Virus record (IMG/VR): IMGVR_UViG_2595698868_000001
Span: 96,001 to 160,000 of that record
Length of the DNA stretch: 64,000 nucleotides
Source: a virus
Lineage: Duplodnaviria > Caudoviricetes
Reading direction: 5' to 3' (one strand)
How positions within the stretch are numbered: the first letter of the stretch is position 1; every line of letters starts with the position of its first letter. The notes below the pieces were generated by a model. The model was not told where the DNA came from. It saw only the letters and a list, made by a program, of their open reading frames with translations, and made no database searches. Both the position numbers and the translations under genes were made by a program. Shown one piece after another: positions 4,369 through 42,958 of this stretch.

Positions 4369-5210
4369 TCCGACCGCCTCTCAATCCCCTTTTTCAGCCG
4401 CCGGTCTGCGTCATCCAGCGCGGTAAGCCCAAGTCCCAGATGCTCGCGGAAGCGATCGTCAAGGGTGCCCGAGGTGGCAAGATCATGGTAACGCCGCATG
4501 TCAGCGAATTGCCGGCCGGGCATATTCCGGTCGTGATCGGGGCGCATCCCACGACCATCGAGACGCTGCGCGCGCTCCACGATAACGGCCATCCCTATGT
4601 CTACGTGGATAATGGCTATTTCCATCCGTACAAGAGCGGCGGCTACTTCCGCGCCACCTGTAACGCGCTCCAGTGGGTCGATCGTTGGCCGTACGATCGC
4701 GCCGAGGCTCGCAACCGCTGGGAAAGCCATAGGCTGAAGGTCGCGCCCTGGCGGGACGAAGGCGGCCACGTGTTGATCGCTCTTCAGACGTCGACTTGGT
4801 ACCAAATGATGGGCGTCGACCAGGATGCCTGGGTGCGCGATGTCCTGGAGCGTCTCACGCCGTGGACGAAGCGCAAGATCATCGTCCGGCAGAAGCCCCT
4901 GAAGGGCATCCAGGTTCCTCCTCTAGAGGAAGAACTGAAGAACGCTTGGGCGGTGGTCGCCTACTCTTCGAATGTCATGCTCGACGCATCTCTCCAGGGC
5001 ATCGCGGTCTTTCCGCAGCGGGCGTGCGCCGCCCAGCCCCTGGGTACCGGACAGCTATCGCGAATTGAAGAACCCCGCCGGGTCTTCGATCGCGAGCGCA
5101 TCTACGAAGAACTTGCCGCCGCGCAATGGACCGTTCCCGAGATGGAATCCGGGAAGATGTGGAACGACCTGCGCTGCCAGTACCAGCCTGAATTTGGACG
5201 CCTTGCATGA
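4365..5210 (+). CDS. Capsule-synthesis-like GT-B glycosyltransferase (paralog)
   Basis: Motifs YVDNGYF, VRQKP, VVAYSSNVMLDASLQGIAVF; ATGA overlap. Confidence 0.5.
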   Translation: MIRPPLNPLFQPPVCVIQRGKPKSQMLAEAIVKGARGGKIMVTPHVSELPAGHIPVVIGAHPTTIETLRALHDNGHPYVYVDNGYFHPYKSGGYFRATCNALQWVDRWPYDRAEARNRWESHRLKVAPWRDEGGHVLIALQTSTWYQMMGVDQDAWVRDVLERLTPWTKRKIIVRQKPLKGIQVPPLEEELKNAWAVVAYSSNVMLDASLQGIAVFPQRACAAQPLGTGQLSRIEEPRRVFDRERIYEELAAAQWTVPEMESGKMWNDLRCQYQPEFGRLA

Positions 5211-10590: not shown

Positions 10591-10619
10591 TTGACAGATC
10601 GCCGTTCGTTAATCATAAT
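10591..10619 (+). promoter_or_regulatory. Sigma70-like promoter
   Basis: TTGACA-N17-CATAAT. Confidence 0.65.
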
Positions 10620-10632
10620 GCGCGTCTCTTGA

Positions 10633-10666
10633 AAAGCTCGCCTCTAATCGGGGCGGGCTTTCTTTT
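10633..10666 (+). terminator. Intrinsic terminator
   Basis: AAAGCTCGCCTC-TAATC-GGGGCGGGCTTT followed by CTTTT. Confidence 0.7.
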
Positions 10667-10675
10667 GCCTTAGAT

Positions 10676-10990
10676 GGCATGGCCCCGTGGAAACGGGCCA
10701 AAGCGGTAGGCGCCGGCCTGGGAAACCTTGCACGCGCCACACGCTGTTCCGGCTGGAAAGCCGGCTTATAGTAGGAGGGTCGCCTAGCGCCTCTCCACCC
10801 TGGGACGTCACAGCTACGGCTCTGGCGTCGTCATTGTGAGGTGAGAACGCCTTCCTCACGCACGCTGGGACGCCGGCGTAAAGTACGAGGGCAAAAGGGA
10901 CGTCCATGTTGGCGTCCACCCGTCGGAAGAGATGCGGGAGCCCGGTCGACTTGTCGGCCGGCTGAAAACCGAGGACCCCGCCGCAATGAC
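10676..10990 (+). ncRNA. Candidate structured ncRNA of unknown family
   Basis: No credible ORF; consecutive hairpins with GAAA/GGAA loops, long-range GTCATTGTG/CGCAATGAC helix, ends at a terminator. Confidence 0.5.
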
Positions 10991-11027
10991 AAAGGCCCGC
11001 CGGAGTGATCCGGCGGGCCTTCCTTTT
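10991..11027. terminator. Terminator between convergent units
   Basis: AAGGCCCGCCGGA-GTGA-TCCGGCGGGCCTT with a downstream T tract. Confidence 0.75.
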
Positions 11028-11046: not shown

Positions 11047-12456
11047 TTAGTCGCGGACACCCTCTGGCAGGAGCGCCTCGCCGATCACGCCGGCGTTCTC
11101 GGCCTCGTGGATGAAGCGCAGGACCGACTCCGAGAAGCCGTCGATGTGCGTCCACTTGCCGTAGCCGATGCCGTTCTTCGCCGAAGCGACGTTGATCACG
11201 TACGAATGCTTGACCTTCGGAGCCGGCATGCTACCGCCGCCCAGCATGTGGTTGACGGTCTTGCCCGAGGCTTGCTCATCGGTGATGATGATCAGGCGAT
11301 CGAACTCGAACTTCGACTGGACGGTGGCGACCGCTTGCACGAGCGCCGTACCGATGTGCGGCTGCGAACGACGGATCGCGTCGACGCCGGCCATGCCCTT
11401 GCGGGCGGGCACTTCCACGATCTTGTTCGAGAAGCTGATCACGCGCAGGTCTTCGGCCGGGATGACCGAGGCTAGGGCGCTAGCCGCGTCGATACGCGTC
11501 AGATCGGACTTGCCCGAGAGCTTCTCGTCCATGGAGCCCGACACGTCCACCATGACCACGGTGCGGCCCGGCAGCTTCGGCATGTCGGCGATCGAGGCGA
11601 TCAGCGCTTCGTCCAGGGCCGGTTCGAACGTCGGCGCCGCACGAGCCGCCGCGATGTAGCGGAACGGCAGGACGCGGTGCGCGCCGCCCTTGCGGGCCTT
11701 GATCGCATCGATCACCAGCTTGCGGTCGACTCCGGCCTGCTCCATGTTGCGCAGGTTGCGCAGCAGGGCGAGGTAGCCGAGCTTTTTGTCTTCCAGCAGA
11801 CGGGTGAACTCCGCCTTCTTGTCGCCGCCGGCCGACAGCGCTACTTCCCAGGTGTCCGGCGACTCCAGCGTCTGATCGACCAGCCCCTTGTACAGGGACT
11901 GACGCTCGTCGTTGGCGGCCTTCGGGTGGCTCAGGAACAGCACGTCGCGCAGACGCACTTCCTTGGCGCGGTCGTACTTGGCGATCTGATACGCGTCGAA
12001 CTTGGCGAACGCCTTGGCGAGGCCGAGCTTCATCTGCTTGGACAGCGGCGCCTTGCGGGCGCCGTCGCGCGGTGGGTTGTACTTCCAGTACAGCGCCACC
12101 AGTTCCGACAGTTCGTCGGCGCGCTGGATCACGCGGGCGATCGTCTCCGAGACGAGGCCGTTGCCCGAGCCGCGCTTGGCCAGGGTGACGAGCAGCAGCA
12201 GGGGGACGTGCCGCAGGTTGGCGACTTCGCGCGCTTCGATGGCGATCTGGGCCAGGGTGTCGACCGGGACCTGCTCAGCGAGCTTGGCGATGCGGGTGCT
12301 GATCTCGACGCCGTCCTCGTAGGCCTCGTTCTCGAACAGCAGGCAGGACATCACCGACCGGCGCAGCGCCTGGACGGCCGTCATGCGGGCTGCGGGAGCG
12401 CCCTCGTGCGTCTTTTCGGTGAAGGTGTTCTTGGTCGAACGGTTGGTCGATGCCAT
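11047..12456 (-). CDS. rsr: Ro60/Rsr-like RNA-binding protein (TROVE + vWA domains)
   Basis: THEGA, LRRSVMSCLL, IQRADE, FDAYQIAKY, RDVLFLSHPK, TWEVALS, ALLRNLRNM, LPFRY, MIDAS DVSGSM, IIITDEQ. Confidence 0.92.
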   Translation of the reverse strand: MASTNRSTKNTFTEKTHEGAPAARMTAVQALRRSVMSCLLFENEAYEDGVEISTRIAKLAEQVPVDTLAQIAIEAREVANLRHVPLLLLVTLAKRGSGNGLVSETIARVIQRADELSELVALYWKYNPPRDGARKAPLSKQMKLGLAKAFAKFDAYQIAKYDRAKEVRLRDVLFLSHPKAANDERQSLYKGLVDQTLESPDTWEVALSAGGDKKAEFTRLLEDKKLGYLALLRNLRNMEQAGVDRKLVIDAIKARKGGAHRVLPFRYIAAARAAPTFEPALDEALIASIADMPKLPGRTVVMVDVSGSMDEKLSGKSDLTRIDAASALASVIPAEDLRVISFSNKIVEVPARKGMAGVDAIRRSQPHIGTALVQAVATVQSKFEFDRLIIITDEQASGKTVNHMLGGGSMPAPKVKHSYVINVASAKNGIGYGKWTHIDGFSESVLRFIHEAENAGVIGEALLPEGVRD

Positions 12457-12492
12457 GGTCGGGTCGGCTCCTCTACTGCGTCAAAGGGTTGA

Positions 12493-12634
12493 CCGCAAGG
12501 TTGAGGGGGAACAAGTCGTCCACGGGGTGCGTCTACCAATTCCGCCATCCCTTTCCGAAGATTGGGAGCAGGGCTTGAACCTGCATTTCGCTTTACCGAA
12601 GTATCCGTGTACTACGCCACCCTCAACCTTGCGG
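12493..12634 (-). ncRNA. Y-RNA-like (YrlA-type) RNA, unit 1
   Basis: Terminal helix CCGCAAGGTTGAGGG; GTGGCGTAG..TACTTCG; T arm GCAGGTTCAAGCCCTGC; then D arm GGCGGAATTGGTAGACGC; 3' CTTGTTCCCC. Confidence 0.8.
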
Positions 12635-12645
12635 CTGATGACTTG

Positions 12646-12807
12646 GAGAGGTTGAGGGGGAACTGGCGAGTACGGTTTCTTATTCCGGTGCGTTTGGCCA
12701 CTCCGCCACATGATCCTGTTGGGGATCAAGGTGGGACTCGAACCCACGTGCCCTTTCGGACGCCGGTTCCACGAAGTATCCGCACTCTGCGCCACCCTCA
12801 ACCTCTC
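12646..12807 (-). ncRNA. Y-RNA-like RNA, unit 2 (class II tRNA-like cargo)
   Basis: Terminal helix GAGAGGTTGAGGG; long variable arm GTCC-GAAA-GGGC, T arm GTGGGTTCGAGTCCCAC, closed acceptor, D arm GGCGGAGTGGCCAAACGC. Confidence 0.8.
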
Positions 12808-12820
12808 GGTCGTTGGTGTC

Positions 12821-12964
12821 GAGGTAGAGGGGGAACAGGCGGCAACGCGTTTTTAGCGCTCTACCACTGAGCTACCTCGGGCTTTCGGCCCTCGGGTTGG
12901 ACTCGAACCAACGACCTCTCGATTAACAGTCGAAGAACTCGTCGCCTACGCCACCCTCTACCTC
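12821..12964 (-). ncRNA. Y-RNA-like RNA, unit 3 (permuted tRNA-Asn-like cargo)
   Basis: Terminal helix GAGGTAGAGGG; TTCGA-CTGTTAA-TCGAG, AGGTC, T arm, acceptor closed by CGAAA, D arm TAGCTCAGTGGTAGAGC. Confidence 0.82.
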
Positions 12965-12966
12965 AA

Positions 12967-13106
12967 TCGGCGTGTAGGTTGACACATGGGGAACTGGCGC
13001 CGTCGGTTTAGGGGGATCGAACCCCGTGGCGCGGATTTGCAGCCGCACCATTTCAACCAGCGAAGTAGCCGAAAGCTACGCCACCATGTGTCAGCCTACA
13101 CGCCGA
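12967..13106 (-). ncRNA. Y-RNA-like RNA, unit 4 (Cys-anticodon-like arm + T arm)
   Basis: ~23-bp terminal helix; GCGG-CTGCAAAT-CCGC followed by GGGGTTCGATCCCC. Confidence 0.75.
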
Positions 13107-13110
13107 CACC

Positions 13111-13301
13111 CCGATCATAAGGCGGTGGGGGAACAAGCGATCCCACACACGTTTAGGCGCTCTAACCGCTGAGCTACACGCCCGTCATCAGTTCAGGCCG
13201 AAGCCTGGACTGGTGGTGGACGCGGCTGGATTCGAACCAGCGACCTCCCGCTCCAGATGCGAAGTAAGTGACATCTACGCCACCCACCGCCTCGTGATCG
13301 G
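13111..13301 (-). ncRNA. Y-RNA-like RNA, unit 5
   Basis: Terminal helix; T arm GCTGGTTCGAATCCAGC, CGCGTCC-ACCA, spacer hairpin, GGGCGTG-TAGCTCAGCGGTTAGAGC. Confidence 0.82.
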
Positions 13302-13302
13302 T

Positions 13303-13479
13303 GTCGAGTGTGTTTGGGAGGTCCAGGGGATCAAACGAAAAGGCACTTTTTAATGCCGGTTGTTCTACCACTGAACTACATCCGAGTTGCCCCGGATGGC
13401 GGGATTCGAACCCGCGACCCACTGGTTGATGCGAAGAAATCCTCTTCTACGCCACCTGGACCTTCCAAACACACTCGAC
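13303..13479 (-). ncRNA. Y-RNA-like RNA, unit 6
   Basis: ~25-bp terminal helix; T arm GCGGGTTCGAATCCCGC, acceptor CATCCG/CGGATG, D arm TAGTTCAGTGGTAGAAC. Confidence 0.8.
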
Positions 13480-13508
13480 CTGCCTTTGACGACAGACCGA
13501 CCTGATCA

Positions 13509-13605
13509 GCGGTGGGGGAACGAGCGCCCCCAGGAAGACTAGACCCGAAGGTCCGGTCGCTTGGTTATGGAAAGCGAAGTACCCGAGGACTACGCCACCC
13601 ACCGC
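13509..13605 (-). ncRNA. Y-RNA-like RNA, unit 7 (no T/D arms)
   Basis: Same GTGGCGTAG..TACTTCG and GTTCCCC scaffold with two small hairpins (one UUCG). Confidence 0.7.
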
Positions 13606-13615
13606 AAATCTGGTC

Positions 13616-13694
13616 GTCCGGGAATTATCGAGGTCGGAAATGGGCCGAAGCCCGCTCTATGCAAAAGAAGTAACCGATCTCTGTCGCCACGGAC
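13616..13694 (-). ncRNA. Y-RNA-like RNA, unit 8 (short, promoter-proximal)
   Basis: GTCC-GTGGCGACAG..TACTTC...ATTCCC-GGAC with a UUCG hairpin; starts at the predicted +1. Confidence 0.6.
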
Positions 13695-13700
13695 AGTGAC

Positions 13701-13729
13701 CTTGTCACATAGGCCGATTCCGATGTCAA
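13701..13729 (-). promoter_or_regulatory. Promoter of the Y-RNA array/Ro60 unit
   Basis: TTGACA-N17-GACAAG; predicted +1 coincides with the unit 8 5' end. Confidence 0.5.
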
Positions 13730-13779: not shown

Positions 13780-13816
13780 AAAAAGGCCCGCGACGATCCG
13801 GATCGTCGCGGGCCTT
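13780..13816 (-). terminator. Intrinsic terminator after the XRE gene
   Basis: Perfect inverted repeat AAGGCCCGCGACGATC with a U tract on the minus strand. Confidence 0.8.
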
Positions 13817-13837: not shown

Positions 13838-14566
13838 CTAGAGGTCGCTCACCTTCCCTACCACCTTGCCGAGGAAGTGCAACTCCTCCGGATCGACCTC
13901 GTCGAATTTCTTGCGGTCGGCCGAGTAGACGCGGTACGGGCCGTTGCGATGCGGGCGCGTGATCGAGGCGACCGATGCGATACCGTTCTGGGCGTAGACG
14001 TACTCGGCATGGGAGGAGCCGGGTTCGGAGCCGCGACGCACGACCGCGACGTCGCCGGGCTTCAGGTTGGTGGAGAAGTCGTTGACCGTGTAGAGGGCCA
14101 GGGCCTGGGGCGAGACCTCGAATCTGGAGACGATCCAGTCTTCATCGAAGGTCCAGGGCTTGAGGGCGATCCAGACTTCACCGTCGGCGATGTAGTCGAC
14201 CTCTTCGATCATGCCGGGCATGTCGGTGGATTCTTCGCCGATGCCGAAGGCCAGCCACTGCGGGTCGCACTTCAGGACCGTGGCGAGCAGGACGATCTTG
14301 GACAGGTCGGGAACGACTTCGCCCGACTCGTACATGCAGTACGCCGAGCGGGAGAGCACTTTGTGTTCATGCTGCTTGTTGTTCCAGAAGATGATCTGGC
14401 GGGCGACGTCGAGTTGGCTCAGCCCGAGAGCGTCACGCTTCTCCTTCAGTCGGTCCTTCAGACCTTCGATCATTTCCAGAGGCGTCGGGGAAGAGCCACC
14501 GCGCGCCTTCGCTTGAGTGGGGCGTTCGGTGGTATTGACCGACTCCCGCATCATCGTCTGTTGCAT
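13838..14566 (-). CDS. XRE-family HTH regulator with S24-like C-terminal domain
   Basis: RLKEKRDALGLSQLDVA...YESGEVVP...DPQWLAFG; LKPGDVAVV; FLGKVVG end. Confidence 0.8.
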   Translation of the reverse strand: MQQTMMRESVNTTERPTQAKARGGSSPTPLEMIEGLKDRLKEKRDALGLSQLDVARQIIFWNNKQHEHKVLSRSAYCMYESGEVVPDLSKIVLLATVLKCDPQWLAFGIGEESTDMPGMIEEVDYIADGEVWIALKPWTFDEDWIVSRFEVSPQALALYTVNDFSTNLKPGDVAVVRRGSEPGSSHAEYVYAQNGIASVASITRPHRNGPYRVYSADRKKFDEVDPEELHFLGKVVGKVSDL

Positions 14567-36215: not shown

Positions 36216-36302
36216 GCTACGGTGGACTGAGTGGTAAGGCGTGGGACTGCAAATCCCGCTGGCGAAAGCCTATCGTGGGTTCGATTCCCACTCGTAGCTC
36301 CA
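36216..36302 (+). tRNA. tRNA-Cys(GCA) with long variable arm
   Basis: GCTACGG/TCGTAGC acceptor, TGGGA-CTGCAAA-TCCCG, GGC-GAAA-GCC extra arm, T arm, U73-CCA. Confidence 0.85.
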
Positions 36303-36321
36303 AAATTCCTGACATTTTTCT

Positions 36322-36360
36322 GCCAGCCTGCTTGACAAGCCGAAAAGCGTCCGGTACACA
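36322..36360 (+). promoter_or_regulatory. Promoter of tmRNA
   Basis: GCCAG-N5-TTGACA-N17-TACACA. Confidence 0.55.
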
Positions 36361-36366
36361 CCTCTC

Positions 36367-36712
36367 ATCGTCGTAATACGGCATACACGATTGGCGGCAA
36401 GACAGGGGTGCGATTCCCCTCGCCTCCACCAAGACCCCACCGGCCGGTGCTTCGGCGCCGCGATCTGCCCCAGCGACAGATCGAAATCTGAACGGTGCGG
36501 TGGGGTCCTGATGGGGGCGATCAGTTTCGATTGGCGCTGTGACTGGAAGACGCGACGTAGGGTGACCTCCTGGCTTAGGCTTCGGCCGAGGTAATTGGGT
36601 CAACGCTGACAAATGTCAACGACAACGACGCTCCCGTGATGGAGCAACTGCTGGCGGCCTAACGGCCTAAAGCGGCGCCCGGCGGGGGCGTGTCAACAGA
36701 ACCCCGCCACCC
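36367..36712 (+). ncRNA. ssrA: Circularly permuted (two-piece) tmRNA
   Basis: Acceptor piece with T arm and CGCCTCC-ACCA (to 36431); hairpin intervening segment; coding piece starts GGGGGCG (36513) giving G3-U70; tag frame VNDNDAPVMEQLLAA* at 36615-36662. Outer ends approximate. Confidence 0.9.
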
Positions 36713-36891
36713 TGCTTCCGCAGCCGGAGGCGACGACAACTAACGGCATGATCTGTCGGCAACCGATCAACCAGTTTTCGTCTCCGGCTTCGCAAGTAGG
36801 TTTGGGGAGTAGTCCTCCGAGGGATCGGAGTATAACGCTCTCCGGGGAGGCGCCTGGGACCATCCAGCCCAGACCGTCTCCCGAATTTTAT

Positions 36892-36954
36892 GCCGGGGAT
36901 AGGGTGGTCGCTCGCCCTAAACAGTTCGGGTAAGCTCCGACTGCCCCGGCTCCA
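36892..36954 (+). ncRNA. Two-arm tRNA-like mini RNA ending UCCA
   Basis: GCCGGGG/CCCCGGC 7-bp stem plus TCCA, two internal hairpins. Confidence 0.55.
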
Positions 36955-36961
36955 AGTTTGA

Positions 36962-37038
36962 TGCGGGGTGGAGCAGTCCGGTAGCTCGTTTGGCTCATAA
37001 CCAAAAGGTCGAGGGTTCAAATCCCTCCCCCGCATCCA
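36962..37038 (+). tRNA. tRNA-Met(CAT), initiator-like body
   Basis: TGCGGGG-TGGAGCAGTCCGGTAGCTCG, TTTGG-CTCATAA-CCAAA, GAGGGTTCAAATCCCTC, TCCA. Confidence 0.9.
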
Positions 37039-37536
37039 CAAGCTGAAGCTCCGATGGCGGTCCTAGGCCGCAGCTTTACCCGGTCCCACGTCGGACAAGG
37101 CCGGGGTCTAGGTGGTGAGATATGATCGACGCCGGCGGAGCGCCAAGCCACCTTCCGCCACCAACGCCGTGTGCGTGACAAGCCTGGAGAGAACGGGCAC
37201 TCCAATCCGGGGTATGAGGCCGGATGTAGCGAACGCCAGCGAGATCGGCGTGACTGGTGGGGGAGAGGACCCACGCTGATTTCGATGAACGCATTCGGCG
37301 ATGTCGGCTTTCTCCATGGAGCCGCCGCCTGAGGCAGGAGCTACTGCCTCCGTCATGCGTTCTGCCAAATCAGCTTCGTCGCGGGGGTTCGATTCCCCAA
37401 GTTCGCGCCTCCTAGGGCGTAGGGCTGCATGGGACACCGACGGATAAACGGGAGTTGCCGGTTCGAGTCCGGCCTGGGCGGGGACTAGGAAACCCGGCCG
37501 GTGGAGGTAACTGGAGAACCTCGTCCGACCTATTTT

Positions 37537-37623
37537 GGTGTGGTGGCTCGACAGGTAAGGCGCCGGCCTCATAAGCCGGAGGGCGAAAGTCCTATGTAGG
37601 TTCGAATCCTACTCACACCTCCA
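37537..37623 (+). tRNA. tRNA(CAT) (Met or Ile2) with long variable arm
   Basis: GGTGTGG/TCACACC, CCGGC-CTCATAA-GCCGG, AGGGC-GAAA-GTCCT extra arm, T arm, TCCA. Confidence 0.85.
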
Positions 37624-42617: not shown

Positions 42618-42958
42618 CAGAAGTCGAGTCCCAGGTCTTTACGCTGCTCAGGCGTCAGCGCCGCCATAGCCGCGCTCTTGGCTTCAGCCTTTTGCCGACC
42701 ACGCTGCGCGATGAGGTCGATATTGAGGTCCGAAGCGGGGAACCCATCCTGGGCGCCCTCGGCAAGCAGATAGTATCGGTCACCGACCTTGATTGCGTAG
42801 CGTTCGCGGACTGTGCCCATACCGCCGAAGTAGCCTTTTCCGGTCGCGGCATAGTCGGCTTCGCCTGACGAAGCGAAGTAGCCGACAATGCCGCCGACAA
42901 CGCCACGATCATCGGTGGTCGTATAGGTGACGTACAGGCGGACGATCTTCGCTTCCAT
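42617..42958 (-). CDS. Hypothetical protein
   Basis: Overlapping start/stop with its neighbours. Confidence 0.6.
   Translation of the reverse strand: MEAKIVRLYVTYTTTDDRGVVGGIVGYFASSGEADYAATGKGYFGGMGTVRERYAIKVGDRYYLLAEGAQDGFPASDLNIDLIAQRGRQKAEAKSAAMAALTPEQRKDLGLDF

What the first reader, a model, noticed from the sequence alone, without database searches (positions are those of the whole stretch)
11047..13729. Phage Ro60 gene fed by a tandem array of eight Y-RNA-like genes: constant scaffold, variable cargo
Seen: the 1.2 kb upstream of the TROVE/vWA gene is eight back-to-back units on the same strand (79-191 nt). Each is closed by its own terminal helix. The helices differ in sequence but keep pairing. 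Each unit carries 5' GTGGCG(T/C/AC)AG-N7-10-T(A/T)CTTC and 3' GTTCCCC or a close variant. Between these constant parts the cargo differs: permuted tRNA-like domains (T arm, closed acceptor, D arm) in five units, a partial tRNA in one, plain hairpins in two. One promoter sits at the head. Known: Ro60/Rsr binds Y RNAs through a terminal helix, and YrlA RNAs carry permuted tRNA-like domains, including in some phages. Inference: one Ro60 is loaded with a repertoire of interchangeable RNA adaptors cut from one polycistronic transcript, each able to tether or decoy a different partner. The size and diversity of the array is the unusual part.
Basis: partly seen in the sequence, partly recalled or inferred. 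Interest (0 to 1): 0.92.

Follow-up and report, generated by a model that had tools for sequence, protein, structure and literature searches.

The report
Eight Y-RNA genes before phage Ro60
A giant Caulobacter phage carries eight back-to-back small RNA genes that share one conserved "handle" but differ inside (mostly rearranged tRNA look-alikes), directly in front of its gene for the RNA-binding ring protein Ro60; they are most likely that protein's partner RNAs, and similar arrays turn out to be common beside this protein family.

Summary
On the minus strand, 12492-13695, eight units (81-189 nt, 2-29 nt linkers) precede a TROVE/vWA (Ro60) gene. A covariance model seeded only from other viral contigs finds four of them. 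A second-round model finds exactly eight in the window and in the whole 280-kb phage genome.

All eight share a scaffold: a variable terminal helix, a one-base bulge, GG:CC, an internal loop (5' CGUA), a variable 8-bp helix, then UACUUC. The pairs covary strongly (94.6% of cells paired against 59% when shuffled).

These are best read as Ro60-partner Y RNAs of the YrlA/YrlB kind. They fail Rfam's YrlA threshold, and their handle differs by one base from the published motif.

In 37 viral loci I counted 1-8 units, and in 80 bacterial loci 0-7 (13 with six or more). This scan has also noted similar arrays on other DNA. I found no paper describing such arrays.

Expression, processing, Ro60 binding and separate partners are untested.

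The parts
11047..12456 (-). Ro60 homologue (TROVE + vWA, 469 aa)
   Evidence: Pfam TROVE scores 64.7 bits against a cut-off of 23. VWA_2 (25.6) and vWA_Ro60 (24.2) fall just under their cut-offs. PHROG 850 'RNA-binding protein', E 5e-73. The best solved relative is Thermus phage phiLo Ro60 (9KOP/9L5Y), E 2e-20 over residues 14-450, with the DVSGS metal-site motif aligned.
12492..12635 (-). Unit 8: scaffold plus tRNA-like cargo (T arm, closed stem, long-loop D arm)
   Evidence: R2 49.8 bits. 16-bp perfect terminal helix. Fold z -3.3. T and D motifs present. ARAGORN does not call it, even after permutation.
12640..12811 (-). Unit 7: scaffold (GGCGCAG variant) plus tRNA-like cargo with a long extra arm
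   Evidence: R2 52.1 bits. Fold z -5.3. ARAGORN calls a tRNA in 13 circular permutations of the cargo and none in native order. Rfam tRNA 23 bits, under the cut-off of 29.
12819..12966 (-). Unit 6: scaffold plus permuted tRNA-like cargo. The order is a 5-bp/7-nt hairpin with loop CUGUUAA, then T arm, closed acceptor-like stem, D arm.
   Evidence: R1 36.6 bits, R2 51.9 bits. Rfam YrlA 29.9 bits, under the cut-off. ARAGORN calls tRNA-Asn(gtt) only after permutation. Fold z -5.0.
12971..13102 (-). Unit 5: scaffold plus partial tRNA-like cargo (hairpin and T arm, no D arm)
   Evidence: R1 52.3 bits, R2 64.3 bits. Fold z -6.3. T motif only.
13112..13300 (-). Unit 4: scaffold plus tRNA-like cargo. 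After the T arm come a 7-nt strand and ACCA, a UUCG hairpin spacer, the complementary 7-nt strand, then the D arm.
   Evidence: R2 49.5 bits. Rfam YrlA 30.5 bits, under the cut-off. Fold z -4.3. ARAGORN calls a tRNA in 35 permutations. Sequence read.
13303..13479 (-). Unit 3: scaffold (3' GAUCC variant), terminal helix of about 25 bp, tRNA-like cargo plus one extra hairpin
   Evidence: R2 46.1 bits. Rfam YrlA 42.3 bits, the best of the three YrlA hits but under the cut-off of 69. Fold z -8.1. ARAGORN calls a tRNA in 9 permutations.
13509..13605 (-). Unit 2: scaffold plus two plain hairpins
   Evidence: R1 51.7 bits, R2 56.7 bits. Fold z -3.1. No T or D motif.
13615..13695 (-). Unit 1: scaffold (GGCGACAG / AUUCC variant) plus one UUCG hairpin. 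It probably starts at or next to the transcription start.
   Evidence: R1 45.3 bits, R2 59.9 bits. The same unit type comes first in two Brevundimonas phages, at 74-77% identity. Fold z is only -1.2.
13724..13729 (-). TTGACA, a likely -35 element of the array/Ro60 promoter
   Evidence: It lies 34 nt before unit 1, and at the same distance in L005, L002, L003, L004, L018 and L036. 13 of 37 loci have an exact TTGACA within 100 nt of the array head, and 1 of 37 has one inside the array. The tool's sigma-70 scan found no TATAAT-type site on this strand, so the -10 element is not identified.
13780..13815 (-). GC-rich inverted repeat followed by TTTTT, a likely terminator of the upstream HTH gene that insulates the array
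   Evidence: Read directly from the sequence. The terminator scan did not list it on this strand.
10992..11021 (.). 13-bp hairpin 26 nt after the Ro60 stop codon, a possible two-way terminator
   Evidence: Listed for the + strand. On the - strand the T tract after it is weak (read).

Best explanation
The 1.2 kb in front of the phage Ro60 gene encodes eight Y-RNA-like RNAs. Each has the same Ro60-docking scaffold and its own inner module.

**The scaffold**
- A terminal helix formed by the unit's own 5' and 3' ends, whose sequence is free to vary.
- A bulged U.
- A two-pair clamp, GG:CC.
- An asymmetric internal loop, 5' CG(U/C)A against 3' GCUUGUU-like.
- An 8-bp helix whose sequence is free to vary.
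- UACUUC leading into the cargo.

**The cargos**
- Five are tRNA mimics in YrlA order (T arm, closed acceptor-like stem, D arm).
- One keeps only a T arm.
- Two are simple hairpins, like a minimal Y RNA.

**Inferred steps**
- One promoter (TTGACA at 13729-13724) drives the array and the Ro60 ORF as one transcript.
- Host nucleases release the units.
- Each unit docks on the phage Ro60 ring through the constant scaffold.
- The variable module then gates Ro60 or ties it to host proteins that handle tRNA-shaped or structured RNA. The precedent is PNPase, which the host has and the phage lacks.

**Shown here:** the anatomy, the covariation, and the strict linkage to the Ro60 gene.
**Not shown:** transcription, processing, binding and partners.

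The confidence of 0.8 is for 'these are Ro60-partner Y-like RNAs'. That different cargos serve different partners I put at about 0.35.
For: 1. **Family, not chance.** Model R1 was seeded from 19 short units of IMG/VR contigs only. It finds U5, U2, U1 and U6 at 52.3-36.6 bits (E 1.6e-12 to 4.6e-8). The best hit elsewhere in the 64 kb scores 11.1 bits. Model R2 finds 8 of 8 units, with nothing else under E 0.1 in the window, and 8 hits in the whole genome, all in the array.
2. **Structure.** Counts on 131 units (128 distinct rows):
   - 94.6% of 2043 cells are paired, against 59.2% when shuffled (0 of 500 shuffles reach it).
   - The covariation score is 0.893, against 0.210 shuffled and at most 0.158 when partners are slid.
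   - All 16 pairs show changes on both sides.
   - The GG:CC clamp is paired in 128 of 128 rows at both positions. Compensatory forms are GC:GC, AG:CU and GU:AC.
   - The eight window units alone give 95.3% of 128 cells paired, against 67.2%, with 12 of 16 pairs changed on both sides.
3. **Linkage to Ro60.**
   - All 131 hits in 37 viral or phage sources lie upstream of the gene on its strand.
   - All 285 hits in 78 bacterial loci do the same.
   - In five bacterial genomes searched whole, all 26 hits lie in the contig region of the Ro60 gene.
4. **Likeness to known Ro60 ligands.**
   - Chen 2014 (sections read) defines GNCGAAN0-1G near the 5' end as the likely Rsr site, followed by YUAY.
   - The same model family here includes GGCGAAG (8 of 131) and GGUGAAG (12 of 131) beside the window's GGCGUAG.
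   - The nearest solved protein is phiLo Ro60. It binds two upstream-encoded Y-like RNAs through a CGAA loop and forms a complex with host PNPase (PMC12135203, passages).
5. **tRNA mimicry.** ARAGORN calls no tRNA in any cargo in native order (0 of 8). After circular permutation it calls one in 4 of 8. The three best Rfam matches are to YrlA.
6. **Each unit is kept.** The window and CcrPW units match one to one in the same order at 87-99% identity, while paralogues are 32-68% alike. Unit types are partly collinear in Brevundimonas phages whose Ro60 is 67-70% identical.
7. **Context.** The phage has Ro60 once and an RtcB ligase, and no RNase PH/PNPase domain. The control genome of Caulobacter vibrioides (the host of CcrPW) has no TROVE or RtcB match but has the RNase PH domain.
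8. **Not coding.** 0 of 4 ORFs in the array match any PHROG.
Against: - There are no expression data. No RNA run holds the stretch, so discrete RNAs are unproven.
- Rfam's YrlA model is not satisfied: best 42.3 bits against 69, and 0 of 20 related loci reach it.
- 0 of 8 window units carry the exact published motif. Six have U where it has A, and the equivalent A10U change raised the KD of phiLo Yrl2 about fourfold (PMC12135203).
- U1 alone does not fold better than shuffles (z -1.2).
- Against CcrPW, units are no better conserved than linkers (95.8% against 96.5%). That comparison is too close to show selection.
- Alignments A3-A5 were fitted to the model's structure, which biases pair counts towards it. 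R2's seed contained four of the window's units (R1's seed did not).
- The -10 element is not recognisable.
- Nothing tested here bears on different partners for different cargos.
Confidence: 0.8

Rival explanations
1. The units are not released. The array is a long structured 5' leader of the Ro60 mRNA, for example repeated operator sites through which Ro60 controls or stabilises its own message.
For: There is one promoter-like site at the head. No terminator lies between unit 8 and the ORF. Only 35 nt separate unit 8 from the ATG.
Against: In a Microcystis phage, both units lie downstream of the gene. In an Arthrobacter phage, they lie on both sides among tRNA genes. Each unit is closed by its own helix and carries its own elaborate cargo, which an operator would not need. 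Known Y RNAs of Salmonella lie inside the rsr operon and are still separate RNAs (Chen 2014). Three abundant RNAs were seen upstream of an Rsr-like gene in a Listeria phage (PMC12282133, passage).
Confidence: 0.1
2. The units are Ro60-independent tRNA mimics that merely share a neighbourhood with Ro60. They would be decoys or baits for host tRNA-cutting or tRNA-modifying enzymes, and the constant scaffold would be a processing or stability element.
For: Phage Ro60 genes often sit inside tRNA clusters. 22 of 131 viral and 32 of 150 bacterial units carry a hairpin with anticodon-loop features before the T arm, with many different triplets. The phage encodes RtcB.
Against: The two hairpin-only units, and the many 62-77-nt units in relatives, keep the scaffold but have no tRNA feature. 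The scaffold was found only beside Ro60 genes, including in 5 whole bacterial genomes. It also resembles the published Ro60-binding module.
Confidence: 0.07
3. The array is decayed tRNA-gene debris or a repeat without function.
For: The cargos look derived from tRNAs. ARAGORN and Rfam tRNA give only partial or sub-threshold matches.
Against: There is strong compensatory covariation. All eight units are retained one to one in CcrPW, and unit types are kept across genera. More than 400 units were found in 115 loci with the same architecture.
Confidence: 0.02

Closest known systems
Salmonella Typhimurium Rsr with YrlA and YrlB; the YrlA family (Rfam RF02553; Chen et al. 2014, PMC4201824; Wang et al. 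2018 preprint 10.1101/312249)
   Same: The RNAs are encoded beside Ro60 on the same strand. A stem formed by the 5' and 3' ends carries a G-N-C-G-A-A-like 5'-strand motif followed by (Y)UAC. The inner domain has the order T arm, closed acceptor-like stem, D arm. A tRNA-less partner (YrlB) exists beside the tRNA-like one.
   Different: Here there are eight units rather than two, all upstream of the gene. The terminal helix is long and variable, lying outside a bulged U and a GG:CC clamp. Both strands of the module are conserved (3' GUUCC). The motif is GGCGUAG rather than GNCGAA(N)G. Rfam's model scores 42 bits or less against 69.
Thermus phage phiLo Ro60 with Yrl1 and Yrl2 (PMC12135203; PDB 9KOP, 9L5Y)
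   Same: It is the nearest solved protein (E 2e-20). The Y-like RNAs lie upstream of a phage Ro60 gene. A stem-loop-stem carries a CGAA-type loop. The host lacks Ro60 but has PNPase, and the phage has no PNPase.
   Different: phiLo has two RNAs and no tRNA-like domains are reported. Binding and the PNPase complex were shown there and not here. I could not fetch the phiLo locus to test model R2 on it.
Mycobacterium smegmatis YrlA (Chen et al. 2014)
   Same: [quoted passage not shown] Unit 4 here has a 7-bp acceptor-like helix whose 3' strand is followed by ACCA and a spacer hairpin, so it could be opened in the same way.
   Different: Cleavage is untested here. Unit 4 encodes the CCA, and it is one of eight units.
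Deinococcus radiodurans Rsr with Yrn1 and further neighbouring ncRNAs
   Same: Several ncRNAs are encoded near Rsr. The Y RNA tethers Ro60 to PNPase. Both strands of the Ro60-binding helix are recognisable (Chen 2014, section read).
   Different: Yrn1's tRNA-like module has another arrangement. No tandem array with one repeated scaffold is described.
Listeria phage CKA15: three highly transcribed regions within 2 kb upstream of an Rsr-like gene (PMC12282133)
   Same: Several abundant RNAs lie upstream of a phage Ro60-like gene and are transcribed in its direction. The authors suggest they are Y RNAs.
   Different: No shared scaffold or structure is described there. That protein was recognised only by HHpred. 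I did not compare sequences.

Membership tests
Ro60 / Rsr protein (TROVE + vWA) | TROVE (HEAT-repeat ring) domain | tested here: met
   Pfam PF05731 scores 64.7 bits against a cut-off of 23. PHROG 850, E 5e-73. Aligns over residues 14-450 to phiLo Ro60, E 2e-20.
Ro60 / Rsr protein (TROVE + vWA) | C-terminal vWA domain with a DxSxS metal site | tested here: inconclusive
   VWA_2 scores 25.6 against 27, and vWA_Ro60 24.2 against 27.7, both just under their cut-offs. DVSGS aligns with the same motif of 9KOP.
Y RNA (Ro60-bound noncoding RNA) | Encoded next to the Ro60 gene on the same strand | tested here: met
   8 of 8 units lie within 1.25 kb upstream, on the same strand. None lies elsewhere in the genome.
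Y RNA (Ro60-bound noncoding RNA) | Long stem formed by pairing of the 5' and 3' ends, containing the Ro60 site (preprint 10.1101/312249, passage read) | tested here: met
   Terminal helices are present in 8 of 8 folds. Helix 1 is paired in 100% of cells in the window set and 95.4% across 128 rows, with covariation.
Y RNA (Ro60-bound noncoding RNA) | 5'-strand motif GNCGAAN0-1G (Chen 2014) / CGAA (phiLo) | tested here: not met
   The exact motif is in 0 of 8 window units: GGCGUAG in six, GGCGCAG in one, GGCGACAG in one. The exact form GGCGAAG occurs in 8 of 131 units of the same model family, so this is a one-base variant and not another motif.
Y RNA (Ro60-bound noncoding RNA) | Physically bound by Ro60 | not testable with these tools
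   Needs pull-down or a gel-shift assay.
YrlA (Rfam RF02553) | Score at or above the family's gathering threshold (69 bits) | tested here: not met
   U3 scores 42.3, U4 30.5, U6 29.9; the other five units have no YrlA hit. No YrlA hit at threshold in 20 related loci.
YrlA (Rfam RF02553) | Inner domain in the order T arm, closed acceptor-like stem-loop, D arm | tested here: met
   Met by 5 of 8 units on T and D motifs. ARAGORN of 8 cargos only after circular permutation. U1, U2 and U5 do not meet it.
tRNA genes | Recognised as a tRNA in native order | tested here: not met
   ARAGORN finds none in the array. Rfam tRNA scores 25, 23 and 22.1 bits against 29. 0 of 8 cargos are called in native order.

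The most novel reading that the evidence does not exclude
The array is a multiplexed ribonucleoprotein kit. One Ro60 chassis is loaded, through a universal handle, with a panel of different tRNA impostors. These include an Asn-type anticodon-arm look-alike, class-II-type arms, and a CCA-bearing acceptor. Each impostor baits or recruits a different host tRNA-handling or tRNA-cutting enzyme. Together with the phage's own RtcB ligase, this would protect translation against tRNA-targeting defences. The same kit, with exchangeable cargos, would run in more than 100 phage and bacterial loci.
Probability: 0.15. Interest if true: 0.85.

Novelty: new variant of a known kind. Interest (0 to 1): 0.6.

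Why it matters
Ro60 and Y RNAs are conserved from bacteria to humans. What the variable module of a Y RNA does, and in particular what the tRNA-like domain of bacterial YrlA binds, is still open (Chen 2014, section read).

This locus is a natural experiment on that question. It has one Ro60, one constant handle and eight different modules, in a culturable phage-host pair whose host appears to lack Ro60.

The handle defined here rests on covariation in more than 400 units. It shows three things:
- The tRNA-less 'minimal' partners are as common as the tRNA-like ones.
- Arrays of 3-7 units are the norm in a large clade of phage and bacterial (mostly Acidobacteriota) Ro60 genes.
- Current catalogues miss them: Rfam finds none at threshold.

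It also corrects annotations. A 'tRNA-Ser' in one Brevundimonas phage and a 'hypothetical protein' in CcrPW both lie on these RNAs.

Tried and rejected
- **Alternative central pairing.** I first read the centre of the scaffold as GGCG pairing with the 3' CGCC. Counted on A4, it is paired in 88.2% of cells, with 44 of 128 rows broken at one pair and almost no double changes. The GG:CC reading is paired in 128 of 128 rows with compensatory changes. I kept the latter.
- **R1 with filters off.** It did not recover the four long units, and split them into false short hits of 13 bits or less. The model's insert length was the limit, and R2 solved it.
- **Selection test against CcrPW.** Units against linkers gave 95.8% against 96.5%. 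This is uninformative.
- **RNA evidence.** No RNA holder is listed for the stretch. Only small shares (0.17 or less) appear in DNA or unclassified runs. I did not lay reads.
- **Neighbours of two bacterial Ro60 loci.** There are no Rtc or nuclease genes, so this gives no lead.
- **crAss001.** No R2 hit at E below 0.1, although the phage has a TROVE gene.
- **Whole-genome RNA search of five bacterial genomes.** It was less sensitive than the direct search (26 hits against 29 in the same loci). I used it only for location.
- **Promoter scan.** It found no TATAAT-type promoter on the minus strand.
- **Papers.** Searches listed no paper that describes tandem arrays of Y RNAs with a shared scaffold.
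  - Not held: Sim et al. 2020 (Annu Rev Microbiol) and Boccitto and Wolin 2019.
  - Not seen: the supplementary tables of Chen 2014, which list YrlA hits in 22 phages. According to PMC12135203, that paper covers a Caulobacter phage of the genus to which CcrPW belongs. Some of the tRNA-like units may therefore already be listed there.
- **Not available.** R-scape was not on hand, so I used the count of structure pairs instead. The phiLo locus could not be fetched because no accession was in the text I read.

Full report
**What the window is**

The locus is 94% identical over 2.8 kb to Caulobacter phage CcrPW (genus Colossusvirus). The window lies in a 279,967-bp virus record, G000.

The gene at 11047-12456 on the minus strand is a Ro60 homologue:
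- Pfam TROVE scores 64.7 bits, and two vWA models fall just under their cut-offs.
- PHROG 850 'RNA-binding protein', E 5e-73.
- Its nearest solved relative is the Ro60 of Thermus phage phiLo (9KOP/9L5Y, E 2e-20, residues 14-450, DVSGS metal site aligned).

Upstream lie an HTH repressor-like gene (13838-14566), dUTPase and a ribonucleotide reductase small subunit. CcrPW and Brevundimonas jumbo phages have the same gene order.

**Checking the observation**

On the minus strand between the HTH gene's terminator-like hairpin and the Ro60 start codon, I find eight units. Each has these parts:
- a terminal helix made by its own two ends, with 6-16 uninterrupted pairs abutting the motifs and up to about 25 bp in the folds;
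- GUGGCG(U/C/AC)AG;
- eight variable bases;
- U(A/U)CUUC;
- a cargo;
- (G/A)(U/A)UCC running into the 3' strand of the helix.

Units are 81-189 nt and linkers 2-29 nt. Unit 8 ends 35 nt before the ATG.

The 5' pattern occurs 7 times in 64 kb, against none in 100 shuffles. Seven of the eight units fold better than their shuffles (z -3.1 to -8.1). U1 does not (z -1.2).

**An independent test with covariance models**

I collected relatives of the protein from IMG/VR (34 loci). I aligned 19 short units (62-77 nt) from 16 of those loci, with no window or CcrPW sequence, and built model R1.

R1 finds U5, U2, U1 and U6 at 52-37 bits. The next best hit in the window scores 11 bits. Long cargos exceeded R1's reach.

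I therefore rebuilt the model from its 83 hits as R2. R2 finds exactly the eight units in the window (46-64 bits, E 4e-16 to 7e-11). It finds eight in the whole genome, all in the array.

**The structure**

On the 131 R2 hits from 38 sources (128 distinct rows):
- 94.6% of 2043 cells are paired, against 59.2% when shuffled.
- The covariation score is 0.893, against 0.210 shuffled and at most 0.158 for slid partners.
- All 16 pairs change on both sides.

The first-round alignment gives the same picture. The eight window paralogues alone give 95.3% paired against 67.2%, with 12 of 16 pairs changed on both sides.

The model is: helix 1 (free sequence), a one-base bulge (U in 118 of 131), the GG:CC clamp, an internal loop (5' C/U-G-U/A-A against 3' G-C-U-U-G-U-U), helix 3 (a G:C pair plus seven free pairs), then UACUUC.

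The clamp is paired in all 128 rows and switches to GC:GC, AG:CU or GU:AC. My first reading (GGCG with CGCC) fares worse.

One caveat applies. These alignments were fitted to the model's structure, and R2's seed held four of the window's units.

**Cargos**

- T-arm and D-arm motifs are in U3, U4, U6, U7 and U8. U5 has a T arm only. U1 and U2 have neither.
- ARAGORN calls no tRNA in any cargo as it stands. After circular permutation it calls one in U3, U4, U6 (as Asn, gtt) and U7.
- Rfam's three best matches in the region are to YrlA, all below threshold.
- U4 carries a 7-nt acceptor-like strand followed by ACCA, a UUCG hairpin, and the complementary strand. [quoted passage not shown]

**Link to Ro60 and spread**

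Every R2 hit lies upstream of the Ro60 homologue on its strand. This holds for 131 hits in 37 of 38 viral or phage sources (the 38th has no upstream DNA). It also holds for 285 hits in 78 of 80 bacterial loci, mostly Acidobacteriota MAGs plus Asticcacaulis and other Alphaproteobacteria.

In five bacterial genomes searched whole, all 26 hits lie by the Ro60 gene.

Units per locus:

| Set | Distribution |
|---|---|
| Viral | 8 units in 2 loci (the window and CcrPW); 6 in 1; 5 in 4; 4 in 9; 3 in 12; 2 in 8; 1 in 1 |
| Bacterial | 0 in 2; 1 in 8; 2 in 10; 3 in 20; 4 in 18; 5 in 9; 6 in 11; 7 in 2 |

The bacterial counts are lower bounds, because some arrays reach the edge of the 3-kb flank.

More distant phages (Microcystis, Arthrobacter, Rhizobium) also have 2-3 units, in two cases downstream of the gene. 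crAss001 has none at E below 0.1.

The array as such is therefore a trait of this Ro60 clade. The window holds the largest and most tRNA-rich example I saw, not an exception. Earlier notes of this scan report similar arrays (3-10 units) beside Ro60-like genes in other phages. I did not test those.

**Each unit is kept**

The window and CcrPW units correspond one to one, in order, at 87-99% identity. Paralogues are 32-68% alike. In Brevundimonas phages (Ro60 67-70% identical), the order U1-, U3-, U4-, U5-, U7-like is recognisable. The last unit of a 43-kb Xanthomonas phage is 79% identical to U6.

**Transcription (inferred)**

- A TTGACA lies 34 nt before unit 1 and at exactly that distance in six other loci.
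- 13 of 37 loci have an exact TTGACA within 100 nt of the array head.
- 1 of 37 has one inside the array.
- No -10 element of TATAAT type is seen.
- No convincing terminator separates the array from the ORF. The two terminator-like hits inside the array overlap scaffold helices.

**How it most likely works**

By analogy with published systems, the constant scaffold docks each RNA on Ro60. The variable module gates the ring or ties it to another protein. The published systems are Deinococcus and Salmonella Rsr-Y RNA-PNPase (Chen 2014, sections read) and phiLo Ro60-Yrl-host PNPase (PMC12135203, passages).

The phage has no RNase PH/PNPase domain, while the control Caulobacter vibrioides genome has one. 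That control genome has no TROVE or RtcB match, and the phage has both. These steps are inference; nothing here shows binding.

**Comparison and novelty**

The kind is known: a Ro60 with neighbouring Y RNAs, tRNA-like YrlA, and phage examples.

Chen 2014 reports 355 YrlA candidates in 254 bacteria and 22 phages. According to PMC12135203, that paper lists a Caulobacter phage of this genus among phages with Ro60. I could not see its supplements.

What I did not find in print:
- the tandem array with one repeated, two-stranded handle;
- the abundance of tRNA-less units;
- the spread of such arrays.

Rfam does not capture these RNAs. I class the finding as a new variant of a known kind.

Noticed in passing
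window 10591-11027 (+): A near-consensus sigma-70 promoter (TTGACA-17-CATAAT, 11 of 12 matches) is followed by two terminator-like hairpins (10633-10661 and 10992-11021). It runs towards the 3' end of the Ro60 gene, with no ORF that matched a family (protein 5).
   Followed up: no
G000:C1:168272-169417 (-), outside the window: The phage encodes a full-length RtcB RNA ligase (415 bits), 59 kb from the Ro60 locus. It also has about 27 tRNA genes over threshold. In Salmonella, rsr, the Y RNAs and rtcBA form one operon.
   Followed up: partly
window 36216-37623 (+): A two-piece (permuted) tmRNA gene at 36328-36711, and three tRNA genes (Cys, Met, Met).
   Followed up: no
L003 4454-4528 (Brevundimonas phage Kikimora); L001 4480-4608 (CcrPW gp439): An annotated 'tRNA-Ser' lies inside a Y-like unit (R2 hit at 4395-4526). 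An annotated 42-aa 'hypothetical protein' lies antisense on the CcrPW array. Both look like mis-annotations.
   Followed up: partly
units in A4 and A6 (e.g. window 12918-12934, L004, L006, L009): 22 of 131 viral and 32 of 150 bacterial units have a 5-bp/7-nt hairpin 3-6 nt before the T arm. Its loop is of the form Y-U-NNN-R-N, like an anticodon loop, and the triplets vary widely (GUU is the commonest in viral units, CAG in bacterial). In the window, only U6 passes this strict test.
   Followed up: partly
L020 2705-2766 (inside the unit at 2679-2815): Rfam tRNA scores 55 bits over model positions 5-66 in native order. This cargo seems to be an unpermuted tRNA body whose acceptor stem is replaced by the scaffold.
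   Followed up: no
L051-L130 (bacterial genome contigs): Ro60 relatives at 49-61% identity are common in Acidobacteriota/Terriglobia MAGs. Their Y-like arrays are spread over at least 3 kb. Two loci inspected had no Rtc or nuclease neighbours.
   Followed up: partly
window 42842-42899 (-): A weak scaffold-like hit (13.5 bits, E 0.16) contains CGGCUACUUCGC. It is probably chance.
   Followed up: no
L047, L048, L050, L006, L010: Phage Ro60 genes often sit inside tRNA gene clusters, with up to 19 tRNA genes within 6.5 kb in Arthrobacter phage Atuin.
   Followed up: no
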